From a virus, in UHGV virus genome UHGV-0361391: a stretch of DNA of 10,689 bases. The stretch is one strand, 5' to 3'. Of this stretch, positions 1 to 10,689 are shown one piece after another. The notes beneath the pieces are model-generated. The model searched no databases. It worked only from the letters and a program-made list of their open reading frames with translations, and was not told the DNA's origin. Positions within the stretch are counted from its first letter, which is position 1. Each line of letters opens with the position of its first letter. The position numbers were made by a program, and so were the translations under genes.

Positions 1-141
1 TCTGATGATATTTTTCCCTGAAGGCTGCCGGGGAGATATTCCCCAGACGAGAGTGACGACGCTGACGATTGTAGAAAATCTCAATGTATTCCCGTATTAC
101 TGAGATGGCTTCATCCCGGTTATTAAAACGATAGTGGCTCA
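1..141 (-). mobile_element. IS3-family insertion sequence fragment: 3' part of transposase orfB (C-terminal region, continues past window start), separated from the rest of the gene by the inserted element
   Basis: Minus-strand translation of 141->1 reads SHYRFNNRDEAISVIREYIEIFYNRQRRHSRLGNISPAAFREKYHQ, matching the conserved C-terminal region of IS3-family (IS150-like) transposases (YIEIFYNRQRRHS...SP..F). It is in frame with the fragment at 10549-10689 once the insert is removed. Confidence 0.8.
138..141. repeat. Left copy of CTCA direct repeat flanking the inserted element (putative target-site duplication; 5 bp CTCAT/CTCAG if one mismatch is allowed)
   Basis: CTCA at 138-141 and again at 10549-10552, immediately outside the inferred element termini. 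In the IS reading frame both copies sit in the same codon phase (cTG AGt / aTG AGc). Confidence 0.5.
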
Positions 142-330
142 TGTAACCAGGTGAATCATTTGATACCGACAAGGGTTTTAGTGAAAGGAGGTGAAATCAC
201 CTGTAAGATGCTGAAATAAAACAGGTGATGTATACTTCGGACGGAAAACTCTTTTTGATACCGACTGCTCAACAAATAGTCAAAAGATCAAAAAACGGCG
301 ACACATTTGATACTGCTAATTTACCCTTAA
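142..330. repeat. Left end (attL-like) with three putative transposase-binding repeats
   Basis: TTTGATACCGAC at 159-170 and 254-265, TTTGATACTGCT at 306-317; these lie 17, 112 and 164 bp from the inferred terminus, resembling the Mu L1/L2/L3 layout. The same motif occurs in inverted orientation at the right end. Confidence 0.6.
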
Positions 331-497
331 AATCTTCTTCAAAACATCTTCAAACTGCCAAAATGCTCACATAATCGATCTAACTATAATCAGTATGATA
401 ATCATCATGAATTACTATTCAATAGCGTGATTATCTTGGGATGAGTCATATGATCTCTATATGTATTTACAGCACCACCTCATGATAGCGATGGCGC

Positions 498-1109
498 TTA
501 ACCAACAACATTTTTCTTTACTGTCACTGCCCCTGATTCCTGGGTGGCGTTATTGCTCGAGTTGTACTTCTCAATAACGCGCAAAATCTCTTTGTCTGTT
601 TCTTCACTTCCCGCCATTCCTATCTTTATTGCATTTTTTAGTACGGGACGTAATGGCAAGGCATCAATGATGCTTTCTACCGCATCCTGGCTGATTGTAG
701 ATGTATTCATTGCTGCCAGCCTGACAAGGTTGTTAGTACCTTCTCGCCTGATGAATGTAAGGATTAATTGCTTCTCTTGGGGGCTTAGAGAGCTAAGCGC
801 CTGATCAATACCCGAACCTGAATCGCAATTTTTTTCGATTTTTCCGCATTCATCTTCGTTCTTGCCTGTGGCCAACCATTCGAGTGAACAATTACAGGCT
901 TTAGCTATTAAGGCCAGTTTATCCAAAGGAGGGAAGTTTTTCCCCTTCCTGTAATTTCTTACTGTGGCTTCAGATAGTCCACAAAGGGTCGCCAGTTCGA
1001 CGTTTGTCATGTTTCCCATAGCCATAGCTAAGCGTTCTGAAAATCGGTTTATTCCTTCCATATCAATAAACCGTTCCGCACTGGATACGGTTTTTTCTGC
1101 CTTATCCAT
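498..1109 (-). CDS. XRE-family helix-turn-helix transcriptional repressor (prophage immunity repressor candidate, Mu c position)
   Basis: 203-aa ORF with an N-terminal HTH_XRE-like segment (NMTNVELATLCGLSEATVRNYRKGKNFPPLDKLALIAKACNCSLEWL). It is transcribed toward the left end, divergent from ner, as Mu c is. RBS AGGGGG lies 4 nt upstream of the ATG. Confidence 0.8.
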   Translation of the reverse strand: MDKAEKTVSSAERFIDMEGINRFSERLAMAMGNMTNVELATLCGLSEATVRNYRKGKNFPPLDKLALIAKACNCSLEWLATGKNEDECGKIEKNCDSGSGIDQALSSLSPQEKQLILTFIRREGTNNLVRLAAMNTSTISQDAVESIIDALPLRPVLKNAIKIGMAGSEETDKEILRVIEKYNSSNNATQESGAVTVKKNVVG

Positions 1110-1265
1110 ATAACCCCCTATAAAACAAAGAAATTATCGACATCGCATTTAATTTCGATATGCTCGCAAAAAACCGTTGATATCGAATTATTTTGCGATT
1201 ATGATTTACCTAAATCGATAACCGGTTTTGATTATCGGTTCAGGTAAACATGAGAGGATCACACA
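1110..1265. promoter_or_regulatory. Divergent early control region between repressor and ner with repeated TATCGA/TCGATA operator-like half-sites
   Basis: Half-sites TATCGA (1135-1140), TCGATA (1155-1160), TATCGA (1182-1187), TCGATA (1215-1220) and TTATCGG (1232-1238) form dyads in the 156-bp intergenic region. The position corresponds to the Mu operator/enhancer region. Confidence 0.45.
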
Positions 1266-1532
1266 ATGAGGGTATCCAGACAAGCATCGAATAATTTGTT
1301 TGTTCGAGAGGGGTGTGACTGGTCTGCTAAAGCGGTATATGCAGCCCTTGAAAACAAAGGCACAGACCTCCCTGAACTGGAAAGGGAGTTAGGATTAAAA
1401 AGCGGATCAATGCGCAATGTGTTTTACCGCCAGTGCCGTAAATACGAAGCCGCCATCGCCGAAAAAATAGGGGTTGAACCTGCTGTAATCTGGCCCAGCA
1501 GATACCAGGTGGACGCCAGAGAAGTGGCTTGA
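1266..1532 (+). CDS. ner: Ner-like DNA-binding protein (Mu Ner / Nlp family)
   Basis: 88-aa ORF containing the conserved VIWPSRYQ motif shared by Mu Ner and E. coli Nlp. It is the first rightward gene after the repressor, with a GAGAGG RBS upstream. Confidence 0.85.
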   Translation: MRVSRQASNNLFVREGCDWSAKAVYAALENKGTDLPELERELGLKSGSMRNVFYRQCRKYEAAIAEKIGVEPAVIWPSRYQVDAREVA

Positions 1533-1542
1533 TGGGGGATGT

Positions 1543-2967
1543 ATGTGGGTAACAGCAAAAGAATGTGTTGGTCTTCCTGATTTACCAATGATGGAACATA
1601 ACATTCGCCATCGACTCACAAAAGCAGCTGCGGGAAATGCAGCCATGTTACGCAAACGTAAGGGGACAAAAGCAATCGAATTTAATATCGATTGTTTGCC
1701 TTCTGGCGCGCAACAAGTATTGCGTGAACGTTATGCCCTTCAACTGATGACGCAAAAAGCTGATGAATCACCGGCTCCGGTGGTGACAAAGGCCAGACGC
1801 TCATCTGCCGTGGTTGATGCGGTGGAGGCATATCGCGGATCACCACAACTGATGCTCGAACGCCTCAATGCCCTGACTGAAAACCAGCGCCAGGTGGCTG
1901 ATGCACGAATCGCGATCGTCAGCGAAGTTCTGAAAGTCGCGCAACAACCTGGTTTCAGCTGTGCGAAGGCTATCCGGTTTATCGTTGACAACCTGGCACG
2001 TTCGCAACTGAACGAGCGCATTGTGGCAATGGTTGAGACGGCGAACGCCAAAAAGGGAAACAGCCGTGCGTTGAGTGAAATCACGCTGAAACGCTGGATT
2101 GCAGCCTTTAACAAGGCGCAGAACGCCGCTGAACGCCTGCTTTTGCTGGCACCTGGTAAGCGCCAGGAAATAAAAGCCGAAGATATTAACTGGCTGCCCG
2201 AATTTCTGGCGCAGTATCGCCAGTCAAACGGCCGACCAATGACCGAGGCTTACGAGGATTTTGTCGCTGAATGGCAGTACCGGCACGCTGATGAGCCTTA
2301 TATGCTCGATATCATGCCGTCTTATGACACCATTCGCCGCGCAATGAAGAAACTGCCGGAAGTGGTGAAACAAAAAGGCCGGGTGACCGGCAGTGAATAC
2401 CGCCAGCTTGAGGGATTCACGCGCCGCGACTGGTCCAGAATGCCGGTGAATTATGTCTGGATTGGTGGCTCCGGGGATGCACAGATGGTCAGCAATATGT
2501 TTGTGGCAAAAACCGGCTCTGTCGGTGCACAGGCGGATTACAGTGGCCCGGCCTGGTATCTGCTCGACTGCTCCCGCGCGGTAAAACCGCTGATTTACCA
2601 GGATCGCCGCAAGGCCGAACTGGTTGCCCAGACAAAAGTCGATGAAGGCCGTGCGTTTACTGATAACGAGTTTGTGTTCGGTGCTTCCGCCCGTCGCAAT
2701 GTGGGCTACGGCTTCTGGCAGATGGCCTACATGATGCAGTCACCGCTGACGCTGGATGCGCTGTGGCACGGCTGGTCAGCCATGCGTGACTTTAAGGCTG
2801 ACGGTGGCCGCAAACTCGGCATCAAACCCACCCATATTGTTGTCCCCACTTCGCTGGAAAAACAGGCGGTGCAGCTGCTGGAGCGCGAGCTGTTCGCGGA
2901 CGGTAACGCCACAGTCTCTAACGAGATGAAGGGCAAGCTGGAGCTGGTTGTCGCGGATTATCTGTAA
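1543..2967 (+). CDS. Chimeric ORF: Mu transposase A-like N-terminal DNA-binding region (about aa 1-310) fused in frame to a Mu gpT-like major head subunit C-terminal region; transposase catalytic core absent
   Basis: The N-terminus MWVTAKECVGLPDLP...GTKAIEFNIDCLP parallels MuA MELWVSPKECANLPGLP...GKAIEYNANSLP (domain I-alpha), and similarity continues to about NYVWIGGSGD (compare MuA QWINGDGY around D269). The remainder (WYLLDCSRAVKPLIYQ...RRNVGYGFWQMAYMM...IVVPTSLEKQAVQLL) does not resemble the MuA core and sits immediately upstream of the DUF1320 gene, where Mu encodes T. Confidence 0.6.
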   Translation: MWVTAKECVGLPDLPMMEHNIRHRLTKAAAGNAAMLRKRKGTKAIEFNIDCLPSGAQQVLRERYALQLMTQKADESPAPVVTKARRSSAVVDAVEAYRGSPQLMLERLNALTENQRQVADARIAIVSEVLKVAQQPGFSCAKAIRFIVDNLARSQLNERIVAMVETANAKKGNSRALSEITLKRWIAAFNKAQNAAERLLLLAPGKRQEIKAEDINWLPEFLAQYRQSNGRPMTEAYEDFVAEWQYRHADEPYMLDIMPSYDTIRRAMKKLPEVVKQKGRVTGSEYRQLEGFTRRDWSRMPVNYVWIGGSGDAQMVSNMFVAKTGSVGAQADYSGPAWYLLDCSRAVKPLIYQDRRKAELVAQTKVDEGRAFTDNEFVFGASARRNVGYGFWQMAYMMQSPLTLDALWHGWSAMRDFKADGGRKLGIKPTHIVVPTSLEKQAVQLLERELFADGNATVSNEMKGKLELVVADYL

Positions 2968-3010
2968 ACGGTGAGCCGGGCTTACGGCCCGGCCCCTGCG
3001 GAGGGCAAAT

Positions 3011-3370
3011 ATGAATGAACATCACACTGTGGCAGCAACAGATGATTCAGGCCTTCAGGTCAGTGGTGACAGTCCTGTCACGGTACTGGCAGAAGTGCGT
3101 TGCAGTCGTACGCATTTTCGTCGTGCGGGGTTCCTGTTCATGCGGGGACGCCAGCAGGTTGACGTCACCCCGGAGCAGCTTGCCCGACTGGAAGCGGAGC
3201 CATGCCTCACTGTACGAATACTACAGACGCCTGGTGATGATGCGGGAGCCGTGGCGGGTGTGGTTCATGCAGAGACCGGTGCAGATTTAGCCGAAGCCGA
3301 AACCGTACAGGATGCTCCCCGGAAAAAGACCGGCAATAACGCCAGACAGGCGAAAAAGGCGCGCGCATGA
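3011..3370 (+). CDS. Hypothetical small Mu-like head-region protein (position of Mu gp35)
   Basis: 119-aa ORF with GGAGGG RBS, translationally coupled (ATGA overlap) to the downstream DUF1320 gene. Assignment is by position only. Confidence 0.5.
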   Translation: MNEHHTVAATDDSGLQVSGDSPVTVLAEVRCSRTHFRRAGFLFMRGRQQVDVTPEQLARLEAEPCLTVRILQTPGDDAGAVAGVVHAETGADLAEAETVQDAPRKKTGNNARQAKKARA

Positions 3371-3786
3371 ATTACGCCACCGAAACCGATATGCGGGCAC
3401 GTTACCGCGAGGATTTGCTCAGGCCATTACTGGCCGTGCCCCGTTCGGATGAACCGGACACGCGCAAGCTGAACCGGGCACTGACGGACGCGTCTGCCCT
3501 TATCGACAGCTATCTGTCTTCCCGTTACACGCTGCCGCTGGCGGTGGTTCCGGCAGTTCTTGTTCAGCACTGCTGCACGATTGCCTTTTATTACCTGTGC
3601 GATCAGCGGGCATCCGATCAGGCGCGTGACCGTTACCGTGAGGCGCTGGCATGGCTGAAAGATGTCATGAACGGTAACGTGCCGGTCGGCGTGGATACCG
3701 ACGGTGCGGCCCCTGAATCCGGGGACTTACCGCAGGTACAGTCTGATGTGGCGGTGTTCGGGCGCAACCAGAAGGGCTTTATATGA
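3367..3786 (+). CDS. DUF1320-family phage protein (Mu gp36-like)
   Basis: 139-aa ORF with the typical DUF1320 pattern (N-terminal M.Y.T..DM.ARY, central LPL..VP..L, C-terminal ..GF) and typical size. Start overlaps the upstream stop. Confidence 0.75.
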   Translation: MNYATETDMRARYREDLLRPLLAVPRSDEPDTRKLNRALTDASALIDSYLSSRYTLPLAVVPAVLVQHCCTIAFYYLCDQRASDQARDRYREALAWLKDVMNGNVPVGVDTDGAAPESGDLPQVQSDVAVFGRNQKGFI

Positions 3787-4347
3787 TTACGGAAACCGAA
3801 CAGGCATATATCACCCGTATTCGTGAGTATTTCGGGAATGAACTGGTGTCTGTTGACACACATCCCGGCGACTGGAGCGACAGCGTGCTGCGCACCATGC
3901 TGATTAACGCCCCGGCTATCCTGGACGGGTAAACAGCTGCTTGCCGAGCGTTTCCCTGACACGTCGCGCCTGCTGCTGGAAGACTGGGAGCGTTATCTCG
4001 GGCTTCCCGAGTGTGATATGGCCGGAGCCACCCTCACGGAGCGACAGCGTTATGCCGGCAATAAATACCGGATGAAGCCCTCGCTGAACCGTGAATTTTA
4101 TATCCGGTTTGCGGCGGAGTTTGGTTATCAGATTGACATTCAGCCCTCACCGGATTCGCAGTGGGTCAGTATTGTCACGATTAACAGTGAAACCGGCTAC
4201 CGGAATATGAATGTGCTGGATGATATTCTCACGCCGCTGCGTATTTATGAAGGCAGTGCGCTGGAATGTATTCTGAACCGTTATAAGCCTGCATGGCAGA
4301 CGTTTATTTACGTTTATGCAAACAGCCATGAAGAGGAGACTATTTAA
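3783..4347 (+). pseudogene. DUF2313-family phage tail protein (Mu gp48-like), disrupted by a +1 frameshift near 3928-3930
   Basis: Frame 0 gives MITETEQ...INAPAILDG then a stop at 3930-3932; frame +1, open from 3904, continues KQLLAERFPDTSRLLLEDWERYLGLPE... to 4347 and carries the conserved DUF2313 FPDT...L..WER.LGLP motif. Removing one G from the GGG run would give a single ~188-aa protein. Confidence 0.65.
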
Positions 4348-5258
4348 TGTTTCATGTTGATAATAATTCCGGCGTGGCGAATATGCCTGCGCTGGCACCG
4401 GCGCAGAGTAATACCACCACCTGGTTTACCGAAGGTGACGGACAAAAAGGTATCAGCTGGATTGGTCAGGACTGGCTGAATATTCTCCAGGCCGAACTGC
4501 TGAATATTCTGGCTGAAGCCAGTATTCAGCCGGATAAGGCGCAGTTAAACCAGCTTACGCTGTCCATTAAAGCCATTATCGCTGCGAATGCCTTTTCCCG
4601 GAAAAATAACCTGAAAGAAATTGCTGATGCCGGTGCGGAGGCCCAGCGTCTGGCCCGTGGTTATCTTGGTCTGGGGACGCTTGCCACAAAAAACAGTCTT
4701 GGTCCCGGTGACGTTAATGCCCTGGCGAAGGATCAGAATCTCGCCGACCTGGAGAATAAGGGAACCGCCCGTAATAATCTGGATGTTTACAGCAAAAGCG
4801 AAGGTGATAACCGTTACCTGCGCAGGGAGCAGAACGGCGCAGACATTCCGGATAAAGGGGCTTTTATCGATAACGTCGGTTTACGGGAAACGGTGAATAA
4901 GGCGGCGAATGCTCTGCCATCGGACGGCACCGCCGTTGCCGCGAATAAACTCTCCACCCCAAGAAATATTAATGGCGTTCCTTTTGACGGGACGCAGGAC
5001 ATATACATTACCTCCGGTATGACTGAAGCTACTGCTGATAACAAATACGTTAGCAACGTTCAGCTTGGTGCCCAGAGTTACCATTCACCCGGAGGTAATG
5101 AAATGTCCTGGAGTTATGGTGCACCTTCTGGTTGTATGCTTTCAGGTATTAACGTGCAGGATACCGGGAAAAGTTCAGCCGATAATATCGGAGGCGTTTA
5201 TTACCGTCCGGTGCAGATATATATCGGTAATGCCTGGCGCACAGTTTCATCCGTCTGA
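4347..5258 (+). CDS. Phage tail fibre protein (Mu S / Stf-like)
   Basis: 303-aa ORF with the conserved tail-fibre N-terminus MFHVDNNSGVANMP...WLN.LQAE shared by Mu S and E. coli Stf proteins. GAGGAG RBS; TAATG overlap with the upstream DUF2313 gene. Confidence 0.85.
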   Translation: MFHVDNNSGVANMPALAPAQSNTTTWFTEGDGQKGISWIGQDWLNILQAELLNILAEASIQPDKAQLNQLTLSIKAIIAANAFSRKNNLKEIADAGAEAQRLARGYLGLGTLATKNSLGPGDVNALAKDQNLADLENKGTARNNLDVYSKSEGDNRYLRREQNGADIPDKGAFIDNVGLRETVNKAANALPSDGTAVAANKLSTPRNINGVPFDGTQDIYITSGMTEATADNKYVSNVQLGAQSYHSPGGNEMSWSYGAPSGCMLSGINVQDTGKSSADNIGGVYYRPVQIYIGNAWRTVSSV

Positions 5259-5266
5259 TTAAAGGA

Positions 5267-5289
5267 AAAGGGTGCGATAAGCACCCTTT
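5267..5289. terminator. Perfect hairpin between convergent tail fibre and tail-fibre assembly genes (likely bidirectional terminator)
   Basis: AAAGGGTGC-gataa-GCACCCTTT: 9-bp perfect stem with a 5-nt loop, flanked by A/T-rich sequence on both sides, between the stop at 5256-5258 and the minus-strand stop at 5293-5295. Confidence 0.55.
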
Positions 5290-5292
5290 ATG

Positions 5293-5865
5293 TTATTCAG
5301 GCTTCTCCGGCCATTTAATGGCGTCAAATTCAGCTTTGTTTTTAATCGCTGGTAGTTCCATTTTTTTCACCTGACTGATGTATTTCATCCATCGTGTAAG
5401 CGCAGCTCTGTTTTCATCACTAATCGTGCCCAGCTGTAACTCAGTTCTCCAGTCATTAATCTTTTCATATGCCTGATTAAGATATGACTGGCGCAGTGCT
5501 TCCGCTTTTTTGGTATAGTTAACCGGGAGTTGTGAGATGACACCATTATCAAACTTCCAGTTACCTGAAATATCAGTACCTTCAGGTAATTCGTCTGTCT
5601 CAACAACGGAAAAACCCGCAGGATACAGCGCCGAAGCATCCTGTGATATTGAGCAGATAACACCGCTGTCAGGGGTTATGCAAAGTTTATATTTTTTGGT
5701 GAATAATGGCAGGGACTCATAGAAATCCTTACCATCTTCACTTTGAAAATACTGTACATCATTACCAAAGGGTTTTTGTTCCGGGTAATATCGTTTAACA
5801 TTAATCAGTTGCATAAACATCACCATGTAAATCAATGATAAAAACAGGAATAATAATATCGCCAT
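5293..5865 (-). CDS. Tail fibre assembly protein (Tfa / Mu U-like); true start probably the internal ATG near 5814
   Basis: Conserved Tfa features: DASALYPAGFSVVE, ISDENRAALTRWMKYISQV, C-terminal WPEKPE. The first 17 residues of the longest ORF are hydrophobic and likely not translated; MQLINVKRYY looks like the real N-terminus. Confidence 0.85.
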   Translation of the reverse strand: MAILLFLFLSLIYMVMFMQLINVKRYYPEQKPFGNDVQYFQSEDGKDFYESLPLFTKKYKLCITPDSGVICSISQDASALYPAGFSVVETDELPEGTDISGNWKFDNGVISQLPVNYTKKAEALRQSYLNQAYEKINDWRTELQLGTISDENRAALTRWMKYISQVKKMELPAIKNKAEFDAIKWPEKPE

Positions 5866-6118
5866 ATACAGGCAAGGGGTTTCTGAAATAACGCATATTT
5901 TCAGATGCTGACCGCAGCGTCATGAATCGTTAAATCAATTATAAGCCGGTAATATGCGGTTATCGTATTGGCCTGTCCATCCTTTGTCGTTATGTTCCTG
6001 CCTAACCGGCTCCGTCACAAAAAGTACCGTGATGCTTTTTTTGAATTTCCGCAAAACACATATTTATCAGCGGTTGTTATTCTGACTCTGTTTAATTCAG
6101 AAACAGGCAGAAAAGACG

Positions 6119-8173
6119 ATGTCAGACTCCAAGTGGAAAATGCTCTCCGCCATGCCCGGAGAGTTTTCAGTCAAGGTTGCCGGTGGCACGGTGGCATTTA
6201 TTGAAAGCCCTTTCCGCCCTTCGGGTAATAAAGGGGGGATCACCTTCGCAGACTGCGTGATCCGCTTCAGCACGAAAGAGCCATTATGGGTAATGCCGGT
6301 ATCCGGTAATCCCAGTGCAGAAATCACCAGTTCAGGCGTGACTGGCATCATTCCAATCACATCTGACGTGGCCGGAACGCTCACGCCCTCCGACTGGAAT
6401 GCACCGGATAACGCCGGGCCTTCCGGTAGCACGAATGGCAGCAGTTCAGAGCCGGAATATTACTTTGTTGTCATTCTCGCGGGTCAGTCAAATGGCATGG
6501 CCTACGGCGAGGGGCTGCCGTTACCGGATTCGTTTGACCGCCCGGACCCACGCATTAAGCAACTGGCACGCCGCAGTACGGTAACGCCCAACGGTACGTC
6601 GTGTACATACAACGACATCATTCCGGCAGACCACTGCCTGCATGATGTTCAGGATATGAGCGGGATAAACCACCCGAAAGCTGATCTGGCAAAAGGCCAG
6701 TACGGGACTGTCGGTCAGGGGTTGCATATTGCCAAAAAACTGCTTCCCTATATCCCACAGAATGCGGGGATACTTCTGGTGCCCTGTTGTCGTGGCGGGT
6801 CAGCATTCACCACTGGAGCCGACGGCTCATTCAGTGAGGCCAGCGGTGCTTCCGCTGATTCTTCACGCTGGGGGGCCGGTAAACCTCTGTATCAGGACCT
6901 GGTAAGCCGCACCAAAGTCGCGCTGGCGAAAAACCCGAAAAACAAACTTCTGGCTGTGGTCTGGATGCAGGGAGAGGCAGACCTTGCCTCAGGAAGCCAG
7001 CAGCATAATAGTTTATTCACGGCCATGGTTCAGCAGTTCAGAACTGACCTGGCTCCGCTTGCTGCGCAGTGCGTGAGTGGAAATGCCACCACGGTGCCGT
7101 GGATTTGCGGTGATACCACGTATTACTGGAAAAACGCTGGCACCGATAAATATGAGGCAGTATACGGTGGCTACAAAGGCAAGGAAGCACAGAAAATTTT
7201 CTTTGTACCGTTCCTGACGGATGAGAATGGACAGAGCACGCCAACGAATGCTCCGGCGGAAGACCCGGATATTGTGGCTGTCGGGTATTACGGTGCAGCA
7301 TCCCGAACCCAGGGCAGTTTTGTTTCGACACAGCGTGACAGCCATTTCAGCTCATGGGCACGCAGGGGCGTCATTTCAGACCGTCTGGCCTCAGCTATTA
7401 TGCTCCATGCAGGGCGCACGGCTGAACTGATGCGCGGGCAGACCGTGACACCACCGGATGAGAAGCCGTCACCTGATACACCATCAAAACCGTCCACGCC
7501 ACCCGCAGACACCACGACGATGAGTACGCTATTTGCTTACCGGGCATCTGAGTCTGAAGGACGGTTGACACCACAGGGTTGGGCTGCCGGAGGTGGCAAG
7601 GCTCAAATCGTGGATGATGCCGGAGCCAGCGGGGGTAAGGCAATGAAACTGACCAAGGAAACAGGAAGAGCCCCCTGGTACCTTGAGCATGATGCTGGTA
7701 ATGGTGCGGACCTGCTGGGTAAAGGTGGTCTTGTCAGTTGTCGTTTTAAACTCGATGGCGCGCTTACGGCTAATCAGTACGCACTGGCGCTGTACTGGCC
7801 GGTTTCTGCCCTGCCGCAAGGGGTTACTCTGGAAGGAAATGCCGGTCATAACCTGCTGGCATCGTTCTACGTACAGAGCGATGCCACAGACCTTAACGTG
7901 ATGTATCACAAAGGAAACACGGCGCAGAACACGAAGCTGGGGTCATTCGGCGCATTTAATAACGAATGGCATACGCTGGGCTTCCGTTTTGCCGGTAACA
8001 ACAGTATTGAGGTGACGCCGGTCATTGATGGTAAGGACGGGACACCATTCATGCTGTCGCAGTCTCCGGTCGGCACGTTTACGGCAGACAAGTTGCGCGT
8101 GACCGATATCACTAAAAATGCGACTTACCCGGTACTGATTGACAGTATCGTGGTGGAAGTGAATAACGCGTAA
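6119..8173 (+). CDS. SASA-family carbohydrate esterase (sialate O-acetylesterase-like, NanS-p-like) with Pro/Thr/Ser-rich linker and C-terminal lectin-like beta-sandwich domain
   Basis: 684-aa ORF. The central region carries the SASA/SGNH-type GQSNG motif (FVVILAGQSNGMAYGEG) and a later VVWMQGEAD block. A linker PPDEKPSPDTPSKPSTPPADTTT precedes a ~190-aa C-terminal domain with lectin/LamG-like character. The gene lies downstream of the tail fibre module, as prophage nanS-p genes do. Confidence 0.75.
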   Translation: MSDSKWKMLSAMPGEFSVKVAGGTVAFIESPFRPSGNKGGITFADCVIRFSTKEPLWVMPVSGNPSAEITSSGVTGIIPITSDVAGTLTPSDWNAPDNAGPSGSTNGSSSEPEYYFVVILAGQSNGMAYGEGLPLPDSFDRPDPRIKQLARRSTVTPNGTSCTYNDIIPADHCLHDVQDMSGINHPKADLAKGQYGTVGQGLHIAKKLLPYIPQNAGILLVPCCRGGSAFTTGADGSFSEASGASADSSRWGAGKPLYQDLVSRTKVALAKNPKNKLLAVVWMQGEADLASGSQQHNSLFTAMVQQFRTDLAPLAAQCVSGNATTVPWICGDTTYYWKNAGTDKYEAVYGGYKGKEAQKIFFVPFLTDENGQSTPTNAPAEDPDIVAVGYYGAASRTQGSFVSTQRDSHFSSWARRGVISDRLASAIMLHAGRTAELMRGQTVTPPDEKPSPDTPSKPSTPPADTTTMSTLFAYRASESEGRLTPQGWAAGGGKAQIVDDAGASGGKAMKLTKETGRAPWYLEHDAGNGADLLGKGGLVSCRFKLDGALTANQYALALYWPVSALPQGVTLEGNAGHNLLASFYVQSDATDLNVMYHKGNTAQNTKLGSFGAFNNEWHTLGFRFAGNNSIEVTPVIDGKDGTPFMLSQSPVGTFTADKLRVTDITKNATYPVLIDSIVVEVNNA

Positions 8174-8180
8174 GCAGGAT

Positions 8181-8223
8181 AAAAAAATCCCGCCGGTCAA
8201 AGAGCCATTTGTTGACTGGCGGG
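8181..8223 (-). terminator. Hairpin with adjacent A7/T7 tract, oriented as an intrinsic terminator for leftward transcription
   Basis: CCCGCCGGTCAA (8189-8200) pairs with TTGACTGGCGGG (8212-8223), 12 bp with one G-U pair. AAAAAAA at 8181-8187 gives a U-tract only on the minus-strand transcript. Confidence 0.4.
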
Positions 8224-8338
8224 TGATATTCCAAACCCATTAAGGAAAGCTACAACCTCTGACAAAGAAGACCATTATGTACGCGGTTACTTTTTAGCTG
8301 AAAACTGTTTCTGTAGTCAATATCAAAGGTAAGGTTAT

Positions 8339-8521
8339 ATGACATTTGTTCATACGATGCTGCTTTATTTCTGCACTGTGGTCAGTGCGTTATATCTGGT
8401 GAGCGGTGGTTATAAGGCCATCAGAAATTATGTTCGCCGCAAAATTGATGACGCAGCAGCTGAAAAGCTCAGTAAAACAGCGCAGGCAACTCCGCTCCCA
8501 AAAGACCCGACCCAGCCCTGA
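8339..8521 (+). CDS. Hypothetical small membrane protein (single predicted TM helix)
   Basis: 60-aa ORF with an AAGG RBS; hydrophobic N-terminal segment FVHTMLLYFCTVVSALYLVSGGY followed by a charged tail. Lies in an AT-rich islet. Confidence 0.4.
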   Translation: MTFVHTMLLYFCTVVSALYLVSGGYKAIRNYVRRKIDDAAAEKLSKTAQATPLPKDPTQP

Positions 8522-8556
8522 TTGCAGGGCTGTATTCCCACATAAGGAGGATATAC

Positions 8557-8811
8557 ATGCCAGAGATTAAAGGCACCGTCACTGAAGTCCTGGTAAAACA
8601 GGCACTGTATTCCGGTGAAGTAAATAAATTACTGAAAGCGCAGGTCCGCAAGGATTTTGAGGCACAAATCGACACTTACGTTGATGAAGTGCTGGCAAAA
8701 CTTATTGGGCCAGCAGTTGCGGCCAGTGATGCTGATAATGAGCCGAAAACCGACGCGCAGCCAGAGCAACCAGACCCGGCTCAGCCCGGAACTGACAGTA
8801 CCATGATGTAA
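8557..8811 (+). CDS. Hypothetical protein (helical N-terminus, acidic proline-rich C-terminus)
   Basis: 84-aa ORF preceded by a strong AAGGAGG RBS with 7-nt spacing, followed by a hairpin (AAACCGG...CCGGTTT, 8818-8843). Confidence 0.5.
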   Translation: MPEIKGTVTEVLVKQALYSGEVNKLLKAQVRKDFEAQIDTYVDEVLAKLIGPAVAASDADNEPKTDAQPEQPDPAQPGTDSTMM

Positions 8812-8978
8812 CAATACAAACCGGTGGTGTCCTCTGCCGGTTTGACACTAATGAAAACATCTTTGCCGCTATCCAGCCATATGTAATCGCTGGATAGTAT
8901 TTCGTATTCAGAAATATAGCTGCTTATGGAGCAGTCAATCCTGCTTCCCCATCCGGGCAGGCAAATGAACCGGTATCA

Positions 8979-9272
8979 TTAGTCCGATTCACGCTTTTGT
9001 AGAATCGTTCCCAGAATGCTATACAGCTCATTAGCCTGTTGCTCCATCATTGAGACGGAGGCTATACGGTGCAAAGTGATTTCAGGAGGTGGCACACCTC
9101 CATCTTCTTGCTGTGGAGGAAAAACATAAGATTTAATAAAAAAGTTGAAGCATATGAACTCTCCCGCACTCGAACTGTATTTGCAGGCATCTGAATAATC
9201 GGAAAAATAATCATTATAGATTTCCGCATTTTCAATCATTTTTCGATTTCTCGTCGTTACATGATTGTCCAT
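8979..9272 (-). CDS. Hypothetical protein, unknown function
   Basis: 97-aa minus-strand ORF with an AGAGG RBS 5 nt upstream of the ATG; AT-rich codon usage differs from the surrounding phage genes; divergent from com-mom. Confidence 0.45.
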   Translation of the reverse strand: MDNHVTTRNRKMIENAEIYNDYFSDYSDACKYSSSAGEFICFNFFIKSYVFPPQQEDGGVPPPEITLHRIASVSMMEQQANELYSILGTILQKRESD

Positions 9273-9460
9273 AGCAGCCTCTTACGCTGGCAATTAACCA
9301 ATTGACTTCTATAAATTAGTTGATTTGTTTGCTTTGCGGTATTCAAATGTACAATCATTCAGCACTTATGCGTTACAGCACCGTTTAAAATTAGTGATCA
9401 AACTCATAAATTTTCGCTAATGACATTTCGTGTTATTTGTTGTATCAATTAAATAAATCA

Positions 9461-9485
9461 AATCGATCGTTTTTGTCGATCGATT
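9461..9485. promoter_or_regulatory. Perfect palindrome with two GATC (Dam) sites upstream of com-mom; candidate methylation-sensitive regulatory site
   Basis: AATCGATCG-tttttgt-CGATCGATT (9-bp arms, 7-bp spacer) with GATC at 9465-9468 and 9478-9481, in the AT-rich intergenic region about 45-70 bp upstream of the com start. Phage Mu mom is controlled through clustered GATC sites upstream of its promoter. Confidence 0.45.
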
Positions 9486-9528
9486 GAGTGATAAAGATAT
9501 CAACAACAAAGCAGGAGGTTATGCGGCC

Positions 9529-9729
9529 ATGTATCGAAACATACGGTGCCGACATTGTAACAAGCTACTGGCACGAGCCAGCTTCAGTTATCTGGAAGTC
9601 AAATGTCCGCGCTGTAAAACCCTCAATCAAATCACATCTCAGAGCGCCACAGAGCACCCCACATACACAAGGAAATCCTGTCGTGGGGAACAGAAAGCAA
9701 GTTACATCCCGTATCATCAGCACGCCTGA
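9529..9729 (+). CDS. com: Com-like zinc-finger translational regulator of mom
   Basis: [34 protein letters not shown]... parallels Mu Com MKSIRCKNCNKLLFKADSFDHIEIRCPRCK with the same C-x2-C...C-x2-C spacing. AGGAGG lies 10 nt upstream of this ATG. It overlaps the 5' end of the mom-like ORF as in Mu. Confidence 0.75.
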
Positions 9730-10420
9730 ACTTATTCACTATAACGACAATATCGTCGGTTATGGCTCCCGTGAGTTACGGGTTGAGACAATAAGTTGCT
9801 GGCTGGCCCGGCTGGTCGTCGTCAATAAACATTACAGCCATCGTTTCGTAAATAATTCCTACCTTCATCTGGGCATATTTTCAGAACGGGAGCTGGTTGG
9901 CGTAATGCAATGGGGTTATGCCCTTAATCCAAACAATGGTGCACGCGTCGTAACTGGCACGCAGAACCGCGAATATATGGAGCTTAACCGGTTATGGCTG
10001 CATGACTGTATGCCGAGAAACTCCGAATCAAGGGCAATCAGTTACGCGCTCAAACTAATCAGACAACTTTATCCGCAGGTGCAGTGGGTTCAGTCGTTTG
10101 CAGATGAGCGTTGTGGCTGTCTTGGTGTCGTGTACCAGGCAAGCAATTTTGATTATGTAGGCAGTCATGAAACAACATTCTATGAACTTGATGGCGAGTG
10201 GTATCACGAGATTTGCAAGAATGCAATCAAACGAGGAGGACAGCGAGGTGAACATCTGCGGGCTAATATCGACAGAGCCAGTGTTCATAAATTCCGTCAG
10301 TTTCGTTACATCCGGTTTCTGGACAAGAGAGCCAGAAAACGCCTTAACACAAAGCTATTCAAAGTCCAGCCTTACCCAAAACCACAAACAGTTAAAACTG
10401 GTTTGAAAGAGAGTGAATGA
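9683..10420 (+). CDS. mom: Mom-like DNA modification protein; start uncertain (candidate GTG at 9683, alternative ATG at 9905)
   Basis: Long ORF in the +1 frame relative to com and overlapping its 3' end, at the extreme right end of the element. Size from the GTG (245 aa) is close to Mu Mom (231 aa). AAGGA lies 9 nt upstream of the GTG. Confidence 0.6.
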
Positions 10421-10548
10421 ACGCTTAAAAACTCATTCTAAAACTCAAAAGAAAAGCGCCGATTTAGTATCAAATAAGTTGCGTATCGGCGTTTTTCAGC
10501 GGTATCAAATGAAATGCAAATCGGTATCAAAAAAATCGCCGCGCTATA
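10421..10548. repeat. Right end (attR-like) with three putative transposase-binding repeats in inverted orientation
   Basis: GTATCAAA cores at 10467-10474, 10502-10509 and 10524-10531 (reverse complements TTTGATACTAA, TTTGATACCGCT, TTTGATACCGAT). The innermost-to-terminus spacing (17 bp) equals that at the left end, and the sites are closely packed as Mu R1-R3 are. Confidence 0.6.
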
Positions 10549-10552
10549 CTCA
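10549..10552. repeat. Right copy of CTCA direct repeat flanking the inserted element (putative target-site duplication)
   Basis: Identical to 138-141 and in the same codon phase of the interrupted IS transposase. Confidence 0.5.
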
Positions 10553-10689
10553 GGCTCTCATTTTTCAGCGTTCCCCAGAAGCTTTCCATCGGAGCGTTGT
10601 CGTAACAGTTACCTTTACGCGACATTGATGTTTTCAGACCAAACTGCTCCTGTATGACCCGGTAATCGTATGCGCAGTACTGTGAACCT
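10549..10689 (-). mobile_element. IS3-family insertion sequence fragment: internal part of transposase orfB (DDE domain region), truncated by the insertion; gene continues past window end
   Basis: Minus-strand translation of 10688->10549 reads GSQYCAYDYRVIQEQFGLKTSMSRKGNCYDNAPMESFWGTLKNESLS, the conserved IS3-family catalytic-domain block (SMSRKGNC.DNAPMESFFGTLK). The frame then runs into element sequence and stops. Confidence 0.8.

What the first reader, a model, noticed from the sequence alone, without database searches (positions are those of the whole stretch)
142..330. Both ends carry three copies of a TTTGATACCGAY motif with Mu L1-L3 / R1-R3-like spacing
Left-end copies lie at 159-170, 254-265 and 306-317 (17, 112 and 164 bp from the terminus). 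Right-end copies lie in inverted orientation at 10524-10531, 10502-10509 and 10467-10474, with the first again 17 bp from the terminus. A widely spaced left triplet and tightly packed right triplet is the asymmetric arrangement known for Mu transposase-binding sites, although the motif itself differs from the Mu consensus. The ends look intact even though the transposase is not, so the element should be mobilisable in trans by a related helper phage.
Basis: seen in the sequence. Interest (0 to 1): 0.65.

Follow-up and report, generated by a model that had tools for sequence, protein, structure and literature searches.

The report
Transposase-binding ends of defective Mu-like prophage
The repeated TTTGATAC motifs mark the two ends of a gutted 10.4-kb copy of a known E. 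coli Mu-like prophage (Sp18 family) and are almost certainly where its transposase binds, which is ordinary biology except that this phage family duplicates 4 rather than 5 target bases on insertion.

Summary
The 8-mer TTTGATAC occurs exactly six times in the window: three on the + strand at 159, 254 and 306, and three on the - strand at 10467, 10502 and 10524. The innermost-to-terminus gap is 17 bp at both ends.

The element (142-10548) is an Sp18-like Mu-like prophage that lost 18.0 kb and 9.95 kb internally. It sits inside an IS600-family transposase gene.

Independent insertions in other genomes share the same termini and the same site geometry, although the spacers between sites diverge. 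A sister lineage has TTCAAGATAA at all six sites, and its transposase differs mainly in residues 1-200. A Yersinia phage mosaic narrows the specificity to about residues 110-200, the MuA I-beta equivalent. So these are best read as transposase end-binding sites (L1-L3, R1-R3). Binding itself is inferred, not shown.

The sites differ from Mu in motif, in R3 orientation (direct here), in the right terminus (TA, not CA) and in the target duplication. The duplication is 4 bp in 12 of 12 insertions, whereas two Mu-proper controls give 5 bp.

Mobilisation in trans is plausible but unsupported. All five places shown for the 15 contigs carrying this deletion lie at one site.

Verdict: new member of a known kind, modest interest.

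The parts
1..141 (-). Left flank: the 3' part of an IS3-family (IS600-family) transposase gene interrupted by the element.
   Evidence: An uninterrupted copy lies in Stx2a phage L002. RefSeq annotates matching DNA as 'IS3-like element IS600 family transposase'.
138..141 (.). Left copy of the 4-bp target-site duplication, CTCA.
   Evidence: The empty site reads gtggCTCAggctc.
142..10548 (+). Defective Sp18-like Mu-like prophage of 10,407 bp, with termini 5'-TG...TA-3'.
   Evidence: It equals the 38.4-kb JE86-ST05 prophage minus 18.0 kb and 9.95 kb.
159..170 (+). L1, a predicted transposase end-binding site (TTTGATACCGAC). The Mu-equivalent 22-bp register would be 147-168.
189..229 (.). Conserved L1-L2 spacer element. 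It holds the palindrome AGGTGAAATCACCT (189-202) and a 9-bp inverted repeat (196-204 and 221-229). Candidate pac or host-factor site.
   Evidence: Read from the sequence. In some searches the first roughly 88 bp of the left end stay about 98% conserved while the downstream sequence diverges. Function is inferred by analogy only.
254..265 (+). L2, a predicted transposase end-binding site (TTTGATACCGAC).
306..317 (+). L3, a predicted transposase end-binding site (TTTGATACTGCT).
498..1109 (-). c-type immunity repressor, 203 aa.
   Evidence: Pfam Phage_CI_repr and HTH_3. Same position and length as the helix-turn-helix gene in full-length relatives.
1110..1265 (.). Intergenic region between c and ner: candidate operators and transpositional enhancer. 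It holds an inverted repeat at 1142-1161 and 1180-1199.
   Evidence: The role is inferred by analogy with the Mu O1-O2/IAS region and was not tested.
1266..1532 (+). ner-like regulator.
   Evidence: Pfam HTH_35, E = 1.7e-20.
1543..2967 (+). In-frame fusion of transposase A (about residues 1-307, the DNA-binding domains only) to the C-terminal half of major head protein gpT. The deletion junction is at 2463-2467.
   Evidence: The break lies just before the GDG motif that aligns with MuA D269.
3917..3920 (.). Second internal deletion junction, with 4-bp microhomology. It removes about 9.95 kb, from after the gp36-like gene into the gp48-like (YmfQ family) gene.
9484..10420 (+). com and mom genes at the right end.
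   Evidence: Pfam Mom, E = 1.6e-77. Relatives carry Com and Mom annotations at the same place.
10463..10474 (-). R3, a predicted transposase end-binding site (TTTGATACTAAA). It has the same orientation as R1 and R2.
10498..10509 (-). R2, a predicted transposase end-binding site (TTTGATACCGCT), 22 bp from R1.
10520..10531 (-). R1, a predicted transposase end-binding site (TTTGATACCGAT), 17 bp from the terminus.
10549..10552 (.). Right copy of the 4-bp target-site duplication, CTCA.
10549..10689 (-). Right flank: the upstream part of the same interrupted IS600-family transposase gene.

Best explanation
The six TTTGATAC(C/T) copies are the end-binding sites (attL L1-L3 and attR R1-R3) for the MuA-type DDE transposase of an Sp18-like Mu-like transposable prophage.

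By analogy with Mu, transposase monomers would bind these sites through the I-beta/I-gamma-equivalent part of their N-terminal domain. They would pair the two ends into a transpososome, cleave at the 3' termini and join them to target DNA. In this family the joining stagger is 4 bp.

The window holds a decayed copy of such a prophage. Two microhomology-mediated internal deletions removed the catalytic core of A, all of B, and the early, lysis and most structural genes. Both ends, the repressor, ner, the operator region and the right-hand cargo (a DUF6645/SASA gene, com and mom) were left in place.

The element is therefore structurally a natural mini-Mu. It could probably serve as a substrate for a co-resident Sp18-like helper transposase. 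Nothing shows that it has moved since the deletions.

Shown: positions, significance, termini, conservation, co-variation and TSD length. Inferred: protein binding, transpososome assembly and trans-mobilisability.
For: 1. All six TTTGATAC copies in the window lie within 176 bp of the left end or 86 bp of the right end, all pointing inward.

2. The termini are fixed by independent evidence. The empty site matches. Left-end matches were found in 233 genomes; 38 of the 40 listed start at window base 142 and two at 144.

3. Seven independent insertions keep the core at L 18, 113 (112 in one) and 165 (164), and at R 18, 40 and 75. The sequence between L1, L2 and L3 diverges strongly.

4. Inside the full-length prophages of about 39 kb, the relaxed 9-mer occurs only 2-7 times and never in clusters.

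5. The geometry parallels Mu as measured on Mu's own sequence, with 22-bp registers ending at 27 and 49 and a distant L2/L3 pair.

6. A sister lineage (L016, L046) has TTCAAGATAA or TTCAAGATAG at all six sites, with the identical right-end geometry of 17, 22 and 35 bp and the same L2-L3 spacing of 52 bp.

7. The sister lineage's transposase is 36-62% identical in alignment columns 1-200 and 80-98% identical over most of the rest, falling to 60% in the last 50 columns.

8. Yersinia phage vB_YpM_5 carries the TTTGATAC motif with the same 17, 22 and 35 bp right-end geometry. Its A is 97-98% identical to the TTCAAGATAA-lineage A between residues 200 and 500. In residues 110-200 it is 71% identical to the window-type A and only 48% to the sister type.

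9. Sp18 and the window type are heteroimmune. They have different c genes, and their A proteins differ mainly in residues 1-60. Yet they share the end motif, so the motif does not track the repressor or I-alpha module.

10. Pfam finds Mu DNA-binding and Mu-transposase C-terminal domains in the full-length A.

11. Sp18-like phages occupy variable chromosomal sites in STEC, which has been interpreted as transposition (PMC10132054).
Against: - No binding, footprinting or transposition data exist for this family in anything I could find.
- The 5' half of a Mu-style 22-bp site shows no conserved sequence among the six copies.
- The right end lacks the canonical terminal CA.
- A is only about 24% identical to MuA over the core, and BLASTP finds no N-terminal similarity. 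The domain assignment of residues 110-200 to I-beta therefore rests on a MAFFT alignment and a weak Pfam hit.
- Against trans-mobilisation: all five places shown for this deletion derivative are at one site. The ypdB derivative did not move in a strain that also carries a full-length A gene.
Confidence: 0.85

Rival explanations
1. The repeats are binding sites for the immunity repressor c or for Ner. On this view they have a regulatory role at the ends rather than serving as transposase sites.
For: From my own knowledge of Mu biology (not checked here), Mu repressor is related to the MuA I-alpha domain and shows some affinity for Mu ends. An intact c gene is present at 498-1109.
Against: The window-type element and Sp18 have different repressors (203 versus 176 aa), different operator regions and different A residues 1-60. 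They nevertheless share an identical right end and the same core at all six positions. The motif changes with A residues 110-200, not with the immunity module. No TTTGATAC copy lies in the c-ner operator region.
Confidence: 0.05
2. The repeats are packaging (pac) signals or host-factor (HU/IHF) sites rather than transposase sites.
For: In Mu, pac and an HU-bound spacer lie in the left end between L1 and L2 (my own knowledge, not checked here). The left-end spacer in this element is strongly conserved.
Against: The motif occurs in mirror-image arrays at both ends. Copies sit exactly 17 bp from each terminus, and two right-end copies are 22 bp apart, as for MuA R1 and R2. Packaging signals are needed at one end only. 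Host-factor sites would not switch sequence together with a phage transposase segment. The conserved spacer palindrome at 189-229 is a better pac or host-factor candidate.
Confidence: 0.04
3. The pattern is a chance clustering of an AT-rich word in AT-rich non-coding DNA.
For: The end regions are AT-rich, with about 39% GC in the first 500 bp.
Against: None of 200 dinucleotide-preserving shuffles reaches the observed count. All six exact 8-mers are at the ends, in the inward orientation. The positions are conserved in independent insertions, and the same geometry holds in lineages with diverged spacers.
Confidence: 0.01

Closest known systems
Bacteriophage Mu att ends (MuA sites L1-L3 and R1-R3)
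   Same: - Three sites per end.
- The first site is in the same register at both ends, with the core ending at position 27.
- R2 lies exactly 22 bp further in.
- L2 and L3 are set far from L1, at about 113 and 165 versus Mu's about 111 and 151.
- The gene order is the same: c, ner, A, B at the left and com, mom at the right.
- The left terminus is TG.
   Different: - The core motif is TTTGATAC(C/T)G, versus Mu's ...RCGAAAR. The best Mu-consensus score in the window ends is 16 of 22.
- R3 is in direct, not inverted, orientation and lies 35 bp from R2.
- The right terminus is TA, not CA.
- The target duplication is 4 bp, not 5 bp (versus the Mu-proper controls).
- The transposase is only about 24% identical to MuA.
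Prophage Sp18 of E. coli O157:H7 Sakai and Sp18-like Mu-like phages of STEC
   Same: - The right-end 120 bp are identical and the left-end termini are the same.
- The six-site geometry is the same.
- A is 100% identical from about residue 100 to about residue 500, and gene order is the same.
- The family is described in PMC2669165 and PMC10132054.
   Different: - The window copy has a different immunity module: a 203-aa c, different operators and different A residues 1-60.
- It has lost about 28 kb through two deletions, so it is defective.
Laboratory mini-Mu / Mud elements (internally deleted Mu mobilised and packaged by a helper)
   Same: Both ends and the left regulatory region are retained, while the transposition and morphogenesis genes are deleted.
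   Different: The element arose naturally. It shows no evidence of movement after the deletions, because every copy read is at one site. It encodes a DNA-binding-only A fragment fused to a gpT fragment.

Membership tests
Mu-type transposable-phage att ends | The sites lie at the extreme ends of a transposable prophage whose boundaries are defined by independent insertions at unrelated loci. | tested here: met
   The empty site matches. The same termini occur in insertions at sorM, glrR, bcsA, torZ, ypdB, flgK, cho and a Stx phage.
Mu-type transposable-phage att ends | There are three transposase sites per end in an asymmetric layout: L1 separated from L2/L3, and R1-R3 close together. | tested here: met
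   Left sites at 18, 113 and 165; right sites at 18, 40 and 75. Mu measured the same way.
Mu-type transposable-phage att ends | The sites match the Mu 22-bp consensus TGNTTCAYTNNAARYRCGAAAR (consensus taken from memory). | tested here: not met
   The best score in the window ends is 16 of 22, against 18-22 for the five Mu sites detected by the same scan (Mu's weak L2 scores only 15).
Mu-type transposable-phage att ends | The terminal dinucleotides are 5'-TG...CA-3'. | tested here: not met
   The left terminus is TG and the right is ...GCGCTATA in every copy read. In the sister lineage the shared left-end sequence of its two insertions begins TATG and the right end of the one read on both sides ends TTTA, which suggests TA at both ends. 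Mu-proper controls show TG...CA.
Mu-type transposable-phage att ends | Insertion creates a 5-bp target-site duplication. | tested here: not met
   The duplication is 4 bp in 12 of 12 independent insertions, and the fifth base fails to match in 11. The same procedure gives 5 bp for two Mu-proper prophages.
Mu-type transposable-phage att ends | R3 is inverted relative to R1 and R2. | tested here: not met
   All three right-end cores are on the same strand. Mu R3 is inverted.
Mu-type transposable-phage att ends | A cognate MuA-family DDE transposase with an N-terminal Mu DNA-binding domain is encoded next to the left end. | tested here: met
   The full-length relative has Pfam Mu-transpos_C (E = 1.5e-17) and HTH_Tnp_Mu_1 (E = 4.2e-5). 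It aligns with the MuA core at 24% identity, E = 4e-10. The window copy is truncated at about residue 307.
Mu-type transposable-phage att ends | The transposase binds the sites directly. | not testable with these tools
   Only indirect evidence is available: the motif co-varies with A residues 110-200 across three lineages.
Mu-type transposable-phage att ends | An internal enhancer overlaps the operators between c and ner. | not tested
   The region 1110-1265 is present and contains an inverted repeat. The block 136-2467 that contains it is 99.8% identical to the JE86-ST05 prophage. Function was not assessed.
Sp18-like Mu-like prophages of E. coli | Nucleotide-level identity of the ends, the transposase gene and the gene order with Sp18. 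| tested here: met
   The closest full-length relative, JE86-ST05, is 97.9-99.9% identical over the three retained blocks.
Non-autonomous (mini-Mu-like) element mobilised in trans | Both ends are intact and there is no functional transposase. | tested here: met
   The ends are identical to those of full-length relatives. A lacks the whole DDE core and B is absent.
Non-autonomous (mini-Mu-like) element mobilised in trans | The same deletion derivative is found at more than one insertion site. | tested here: not met
   15 contigs were read with the exact fusion protein, and all five distinct places shown are at the same IS600 site. No RefSeq complete E. coli genome carries this derivative. The ypdB derivative has identical flanks in DLI.5a and AST46, and one IMG genome has the same right flank.

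The most novel reading that the evidence does not exclude
The internally deleted copies may not be mere wreckage. On this reading they are maintained because they keep both ends, the repressor and a DNA-binding-only transposase fragment (residues 1-307, cut just before the first catalytic Asp).

Such a fragment could occupy the end sites of incoming Sp18-like phages and poison transpososome assembly, much as the KP repressor of P elements does. Alternatively, the elements could ride as natural mini-Mu satellites on helper phages.

What fits this reading: three independent derivatives of about 10 kb, in an IS600 copy, in ypdB and in cho. All keep c-ner-A' and the DUF6645-com-mom block.
Probability: 0.1. 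Interest if true: 0.6.

Novelty: new member of a known kind. Interest (0 to 1): 0.3.

Why it matters
The finding gives a sequence-level map of attL and attR for the Sp18-like Mu-like phages. These phages are found in 248 of 5,426 complete E. coli genomes, many of the listed ones from STEC strains, and they insert into genes and into Stx phages.

The map allows exact delimitation of these prophages and their remnants.

The comparison also supplies a natural domain-swap experiment that points to residues 110-200 of the transposase as the end-specificity determinant.

It shows that this branch of the MuA family uses a 4-bp stagger and a TA-3' end. That is directly testable and bears on how transpososome geometry sets target spacing.

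For the window itself the result is ordinary: a decayed prophage with intact ends.

Tried and rejected
- **5-bp TSD with the element ending at ...GCTAT.** Rejected. The base after GCGCTAT is A in every insertion read. The corresponding left-flank base is G, A, T, C, T, C, T, G, C, C, G in the eleven insertions of this lineage (T in the sister-lineage insertion), so it matches only once.
- **A GGCTC 5-bp TSD for the window.** Rejected because it would require a target 7 bp shorter than the real empty site.
- **Looking for the same deletion derivative at other sites, as evidence of trans-mobilisation.** None was found.
- **Checking whether the ypdB derivative moved in AST46, which also has a full-length A gene.** It had not.
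- **Scanning GTDB species representatives with the full-length transposase.** Only two loci came back, both of the sister lineage. They were useful for co-variation but gave no wider phylogenetic depth.
- **Fetching accession NZ_CP178302.1.** It was not in the local collection.
- **Literature searches on Sp18 end sites or a 4-bp duplication in Mu-like phages.** Nothing found. The library is incomplete, so this is not proof of novelty.
- **My initial guess that the host IS is IS629.** Wrong. RefSeq annotates it as IS600 family.
- **Two of four IMG/VR left/right pairs.** They did not match each other, presumably because they come from different copies or rearrangements. They were not counted.

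Full report
**Observation**

The window's ends were read directly. On the + strand, TTTGATACCGAC lies at 159-170 and at 254-265, and TTTGATACTGCT lies at 306-317. On the - strand, TTTGATACCGAT lies at 10520-10531, TTTGATACCGCT at 10498-10509 and TTTGATACTAAA at 10463-10474.

The shared core is TTTGATAC(C/T). The 8-mer TTTGATAC occurs exactly six times in the 10,689 bases: three on the + strand at the left end and three on the - strand at the right end. TTTGATACYG with up to 1 mismatch gives 9 matches against 1.41 expected, and 0 of 200 shuffles reach 9. The stated offsets of 17, 112 and 164 bp (left) and 17 bp (right) are correct.

**What the element is**

Pfam assigns the ORFs as follows:
- a CI-type repressor at 498-1109 on the - strand;
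- a Ner-like HTH_35 protein at 1266-1532;
- a 474-aa ORF at 1543-2967, whose N-terminus hits the Mu DNA-binding domain and whose C-terminus is the last 150 residues of Mu-like head protein gpT;
- Mu gp36- and gp48-like fragments;
- a tail fibre assembly protein;
- a DUF6645/SASA protein;
- Mom.

The flanks (1-141 and 10549-10689) are two halves of an IS3-family transposase gene. RefSeq annotates that gene as IS600 family. An uninterrupted copy reads ...gtggCTCAggctc....

Left-end matches were found in 233 complete E. coli genomes. In the 40 rows listed, 38 start at window base 142 and two at base 144, in many different genes. One of them is prophage Sp18 of O157 Sakai. Right-end matches stop at 10548.

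The closest full-length relative is a 38,413-bp prophage in flgK of strain JE86-ST05. The window aligns to it in three blocks:
- 136-2467 at 99.8% identity;
- 2463-3920 at 97.9%;
- 3917-10553 at 99.9%.

So the window element equals that prophage minus 18.0 kb and 9.95 kb, with 5-bp and 4-bp microhomologies at the junctions. The first deletion fuses A, after about residue 307, in frame to gpT. The break lies immediately before the GDG motif that aligns with MuA D269. The whole DDE core, B, the early genes, the lysis genes and most morphogenesis genes are gone.

**Are the repeats functional end sites?**

Seven independent insertions of this lineage were compared. They are the window, ypdB, sorM (Sp18), glrR, bcsA, torZ and a Stx2c phage.
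- The core sits at element positions 18, 113 (112 in one) and 165 (164) on the left, and at 18, 40 and 75 on the right.
- The DNA between L1, L2 and L3 differs strongly among these copies.
- Inside the full-length prophages of about 39 kb, the relaxed 9-mer TTTGATAYY occurs 2-7 times and never in clusters.

Mu's own sequence was scanned with the published 22-bp consensus, which I took from memory. The scan places L1 at 6-27, L3 at 151-172, R1 at 6-27, R2 at 28-49 and an inverted R3 at 56-77. The weak L2 has its CGCGAAAG at 125-132. In the window element the core ends at 27, 122 and 174 on the left and at 27, 49 and 84 on the right. L1, R1 and R2 are thus in exactly the Mu register, and L2 and L3 are comparably displaced. 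The differences are that R3 is direct rather than inverted and that the Mu consensus itself is not matched (best 16 of 22).

**Co-variation with the transposase**

A sister lineage was found in S. flexneri SFBU1023, E. coli ECMA0423 and E. coli VL40. It carries TTCAAGATAA or TTCAAGATAG in place of TTTGATAC at all six positions. Its right-end geometry is identical (17 bp to the terminus, then 22 and 35 bp between sites). Its L2-L3 spacing is the same 52 bp.

Its transposase is 36-62% identical to the window type in alignment columns 1-200. Over most of the remainder it is 80-98% identical, falling to 60% in the last 50 columns.

Yersinia phage vB_YpM_5 has the TTTGATAC core with the same right-end geometry. 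Its A is 97-98% identical to the sister-lineage A between residues 200 and 500. In residues 110-200 it is 71% identical to the window type and only 48% to the sister type.

Conversely, Sp18 and the window type have different repressors, and their A proteins differ mainly in residues 1-60. Yet they share the same end motif.

The motif therefore follows A residues about 110-200 and not the immunity module. In a MAFFT alignment these residues fall opposite the MuA I-beta region. That assignment is tentative, because A is only 24% identical to MuA over the core and BLASTP finds no N-terminal similarity. Pfam sees HTH_Tnp_Mu_1 weakly and Mu-transpos_C clearly.

This is the strongest computational support obtainable for 'transposase end-binding sites'. 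Actual binding remains inferred.

**Differences from Mu in the chemistry**

Twelve independent insertions show a perfect 4-bp duplication next to a constant right terminus ...GCGCTATA:
- CTCA, ACTG, TAAA, CGTA, CGAG, TGCT and CATC;
- AGAA and AACA;
- ATCA;
- AGAG;
- TTCA in the sister lineage.

A fifth base would match in only one of them. For the window the empty site proves the point directly. The depositors of LC727881 also annotated a 4-bp duplication.

The same procedure was applied to two Mu-proper prophages in E. coli. It returns the canonical 5 bp (TTCAG and TCCAG) and TG...CA termini.

So this family ends 5'-TG...TA-3'. In the sister lineage, the sequence shared by its two insertions begins TATG at the left, and the right end of the one read on both sides ends TTTA. 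That fits TA at both ends. vB_YpM_5 looks the same, but its ends come from a circularised assembly and are uncertain. The family apparently joins to target with a 4-bp stagger. I found no paper describing this, but the library is incomplete.

**Mobilisation in trans**

Structurally the element qualifies as a substrate:
- the left 339 bp are 100% identical to two full-length prophages;
- the right 120 bp are identical to Sp18;
- the c-ner intergenic region is present.

Laboratory mini-Mu elements are the precedent; that rests on my own knowledge.

The data give no sign that it has moved. Fifteen contigs were read that encode the exact fusion protein, and all five distinct places shown have the same IS600 junctions. 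No RefSeq complete genome carries this derivative.

An independent 10,460-bp derivative fuses A to the tail sheath gene. It has identical ypdB flanks in DLI.5a and AST46, and one IMG genome shows the same right flank. AST46 also carries a full-length A gene elsewhere. A third derivative of about 10.0 kb, in cho, arose by an IS1-associated deletion.

Full-length A genes predominate: 233 of 248 genomes with a match have at least 80% coverage.

A homoimmune helper would be repressed by the element's own intact c gene. A heteroimmune helper such as Sp18 has the same residues 110-200 but a different I-alpha-like N-terminus. That mismatch may weaken enhancer use. This last point is an inference from the Mu/D108 paradigm.

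**Verdict**

Its main interpretation is supported by comparative evidence, and its mobilisation claim is an untested prediction.

The object is a decayed member of a known prophage family, Sp18-like phages (PMC2669165, PMC10132054). The mechanism is the known Mu paradigm. The mildly novel content is threefold: the site map for this family, the natural domain-swap localisation of end specificity, and the 4-bp duplication with a TA terminus.

Noticed in passing
window 138-141 and 10547-10552; also L001, L010-L013, L003/L009, L046-L049, and the pairs L033/L036 and L024/L039: Sp18-like elements make a 4-bp target duplication and end in ...TATA (5'-TG...TA-3'). This holds in 12 of 12 independent insertions. 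The same procedure gives 5 bp and TG...CA for two Mu-proper prophages (L050, L051). The sister lineage appears to have TA at both ends.
   Followed up: yes
window 1543-2467 (A residues about 1-307); L011 1667-3757; L046 1560-3656; L018 5930-8023: A natural mosaic among three transposase lineages localises end-motif specificity to A residues about 110-200. vB_YpM_5 matches the TTCAAGATAA-lineage A at 97-98% between residues 200 and 500, but resembles the TTTGATAC-lineage A in residues 110-200 and uses TTTGATAC ends.
   Followed up: yes
window 2463-2467 (junction); ORF 1543-2967: The 18-kb deletion created an in-frame fusion. It encodes the complete N-terminal DNA-binding region of the transposase, cut just before the first catalytic Asp, joined to the C-terminal 150 residues of head protein gpT. 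Whether the fusion is expressed, or interferes with related phages, is unknown.
   Followed up: partly
L001 3001-13460 (ypdB, also in L048); L049 1501-11512 (cho); window 142-10548: Three independent internal-deletion derivatives have nearly the same size (10.46, 10.01 and 10.41 kb). All keep both ends, c, ner, at least the N-terminal part of A, and the DUF6645-DUF1378-DUF826-com-mom block. This may be coincidence or may reflect selection for immunity and cargo.
   Followed up: partly
window 189-229: The L1-L2 spacer holds the palindrome AGGTGAAATCACCT and a 9-bp inverted repeat (196-204 and 221-229). AGGTGAATCA also occurs at 149-158, just before L1. The first roughly 88 bp of the left end stay about 98% conserved where the rest diverges (hits H89 and H90). 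This is a candidate pac or host-factor site.
   Followed up: no
window 1142-1161 and 1180-1199: A 20-nt imperfect inverted repeat (ATCGCATTTAATTTCGATAT / ATATCGAATTATTTTGCGAT) lies in the c-ner intergenic region. It is a likely operator or enhancer candidate.
   Followed up: no
window 6119-8173: A 684-aa ORF carries a sialate O-acetylesterase-like (SASA) domain and a C-terminal DUF6645. It lies between the tail-fibre module and com/mom and is retained in all three deletion derivatives and in the full-length relatives. It is a possible moron or cargo gene acting on surface carbohydrate.
   Followed up: no
window 5866-6118, compared with L011 33837-35051: The Gin-type invertase gene and part of the invertible tail-fibre segment present in Sp18 and L011 are absent from the window. 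The same stretch in the otherwise full-length JE86-ST05 prophage aligns colinearly with the window in one 99.9% block and has no recombinase gene annotated.
   Followed up: partly
window 1-141 and 10549-10689: The prophage remnant is inserted inside an IS600-family transposase gene. This IS has up to 43 matching places per genome in the E. coli collection, so IS-IS recombination could relocate the whole composite without any Mu-type transposition.
   Followed up: partly
L011 18174-18253; L012 26361-26448; L013 26513-26600; L047 20660-20739: RefSeq annotates a 'tRNA-OTHER' on the opposite strand between the head morphogenesis genes of the full-length Sp18-like relatives. This region is deleted from the window.
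   Followed up: no
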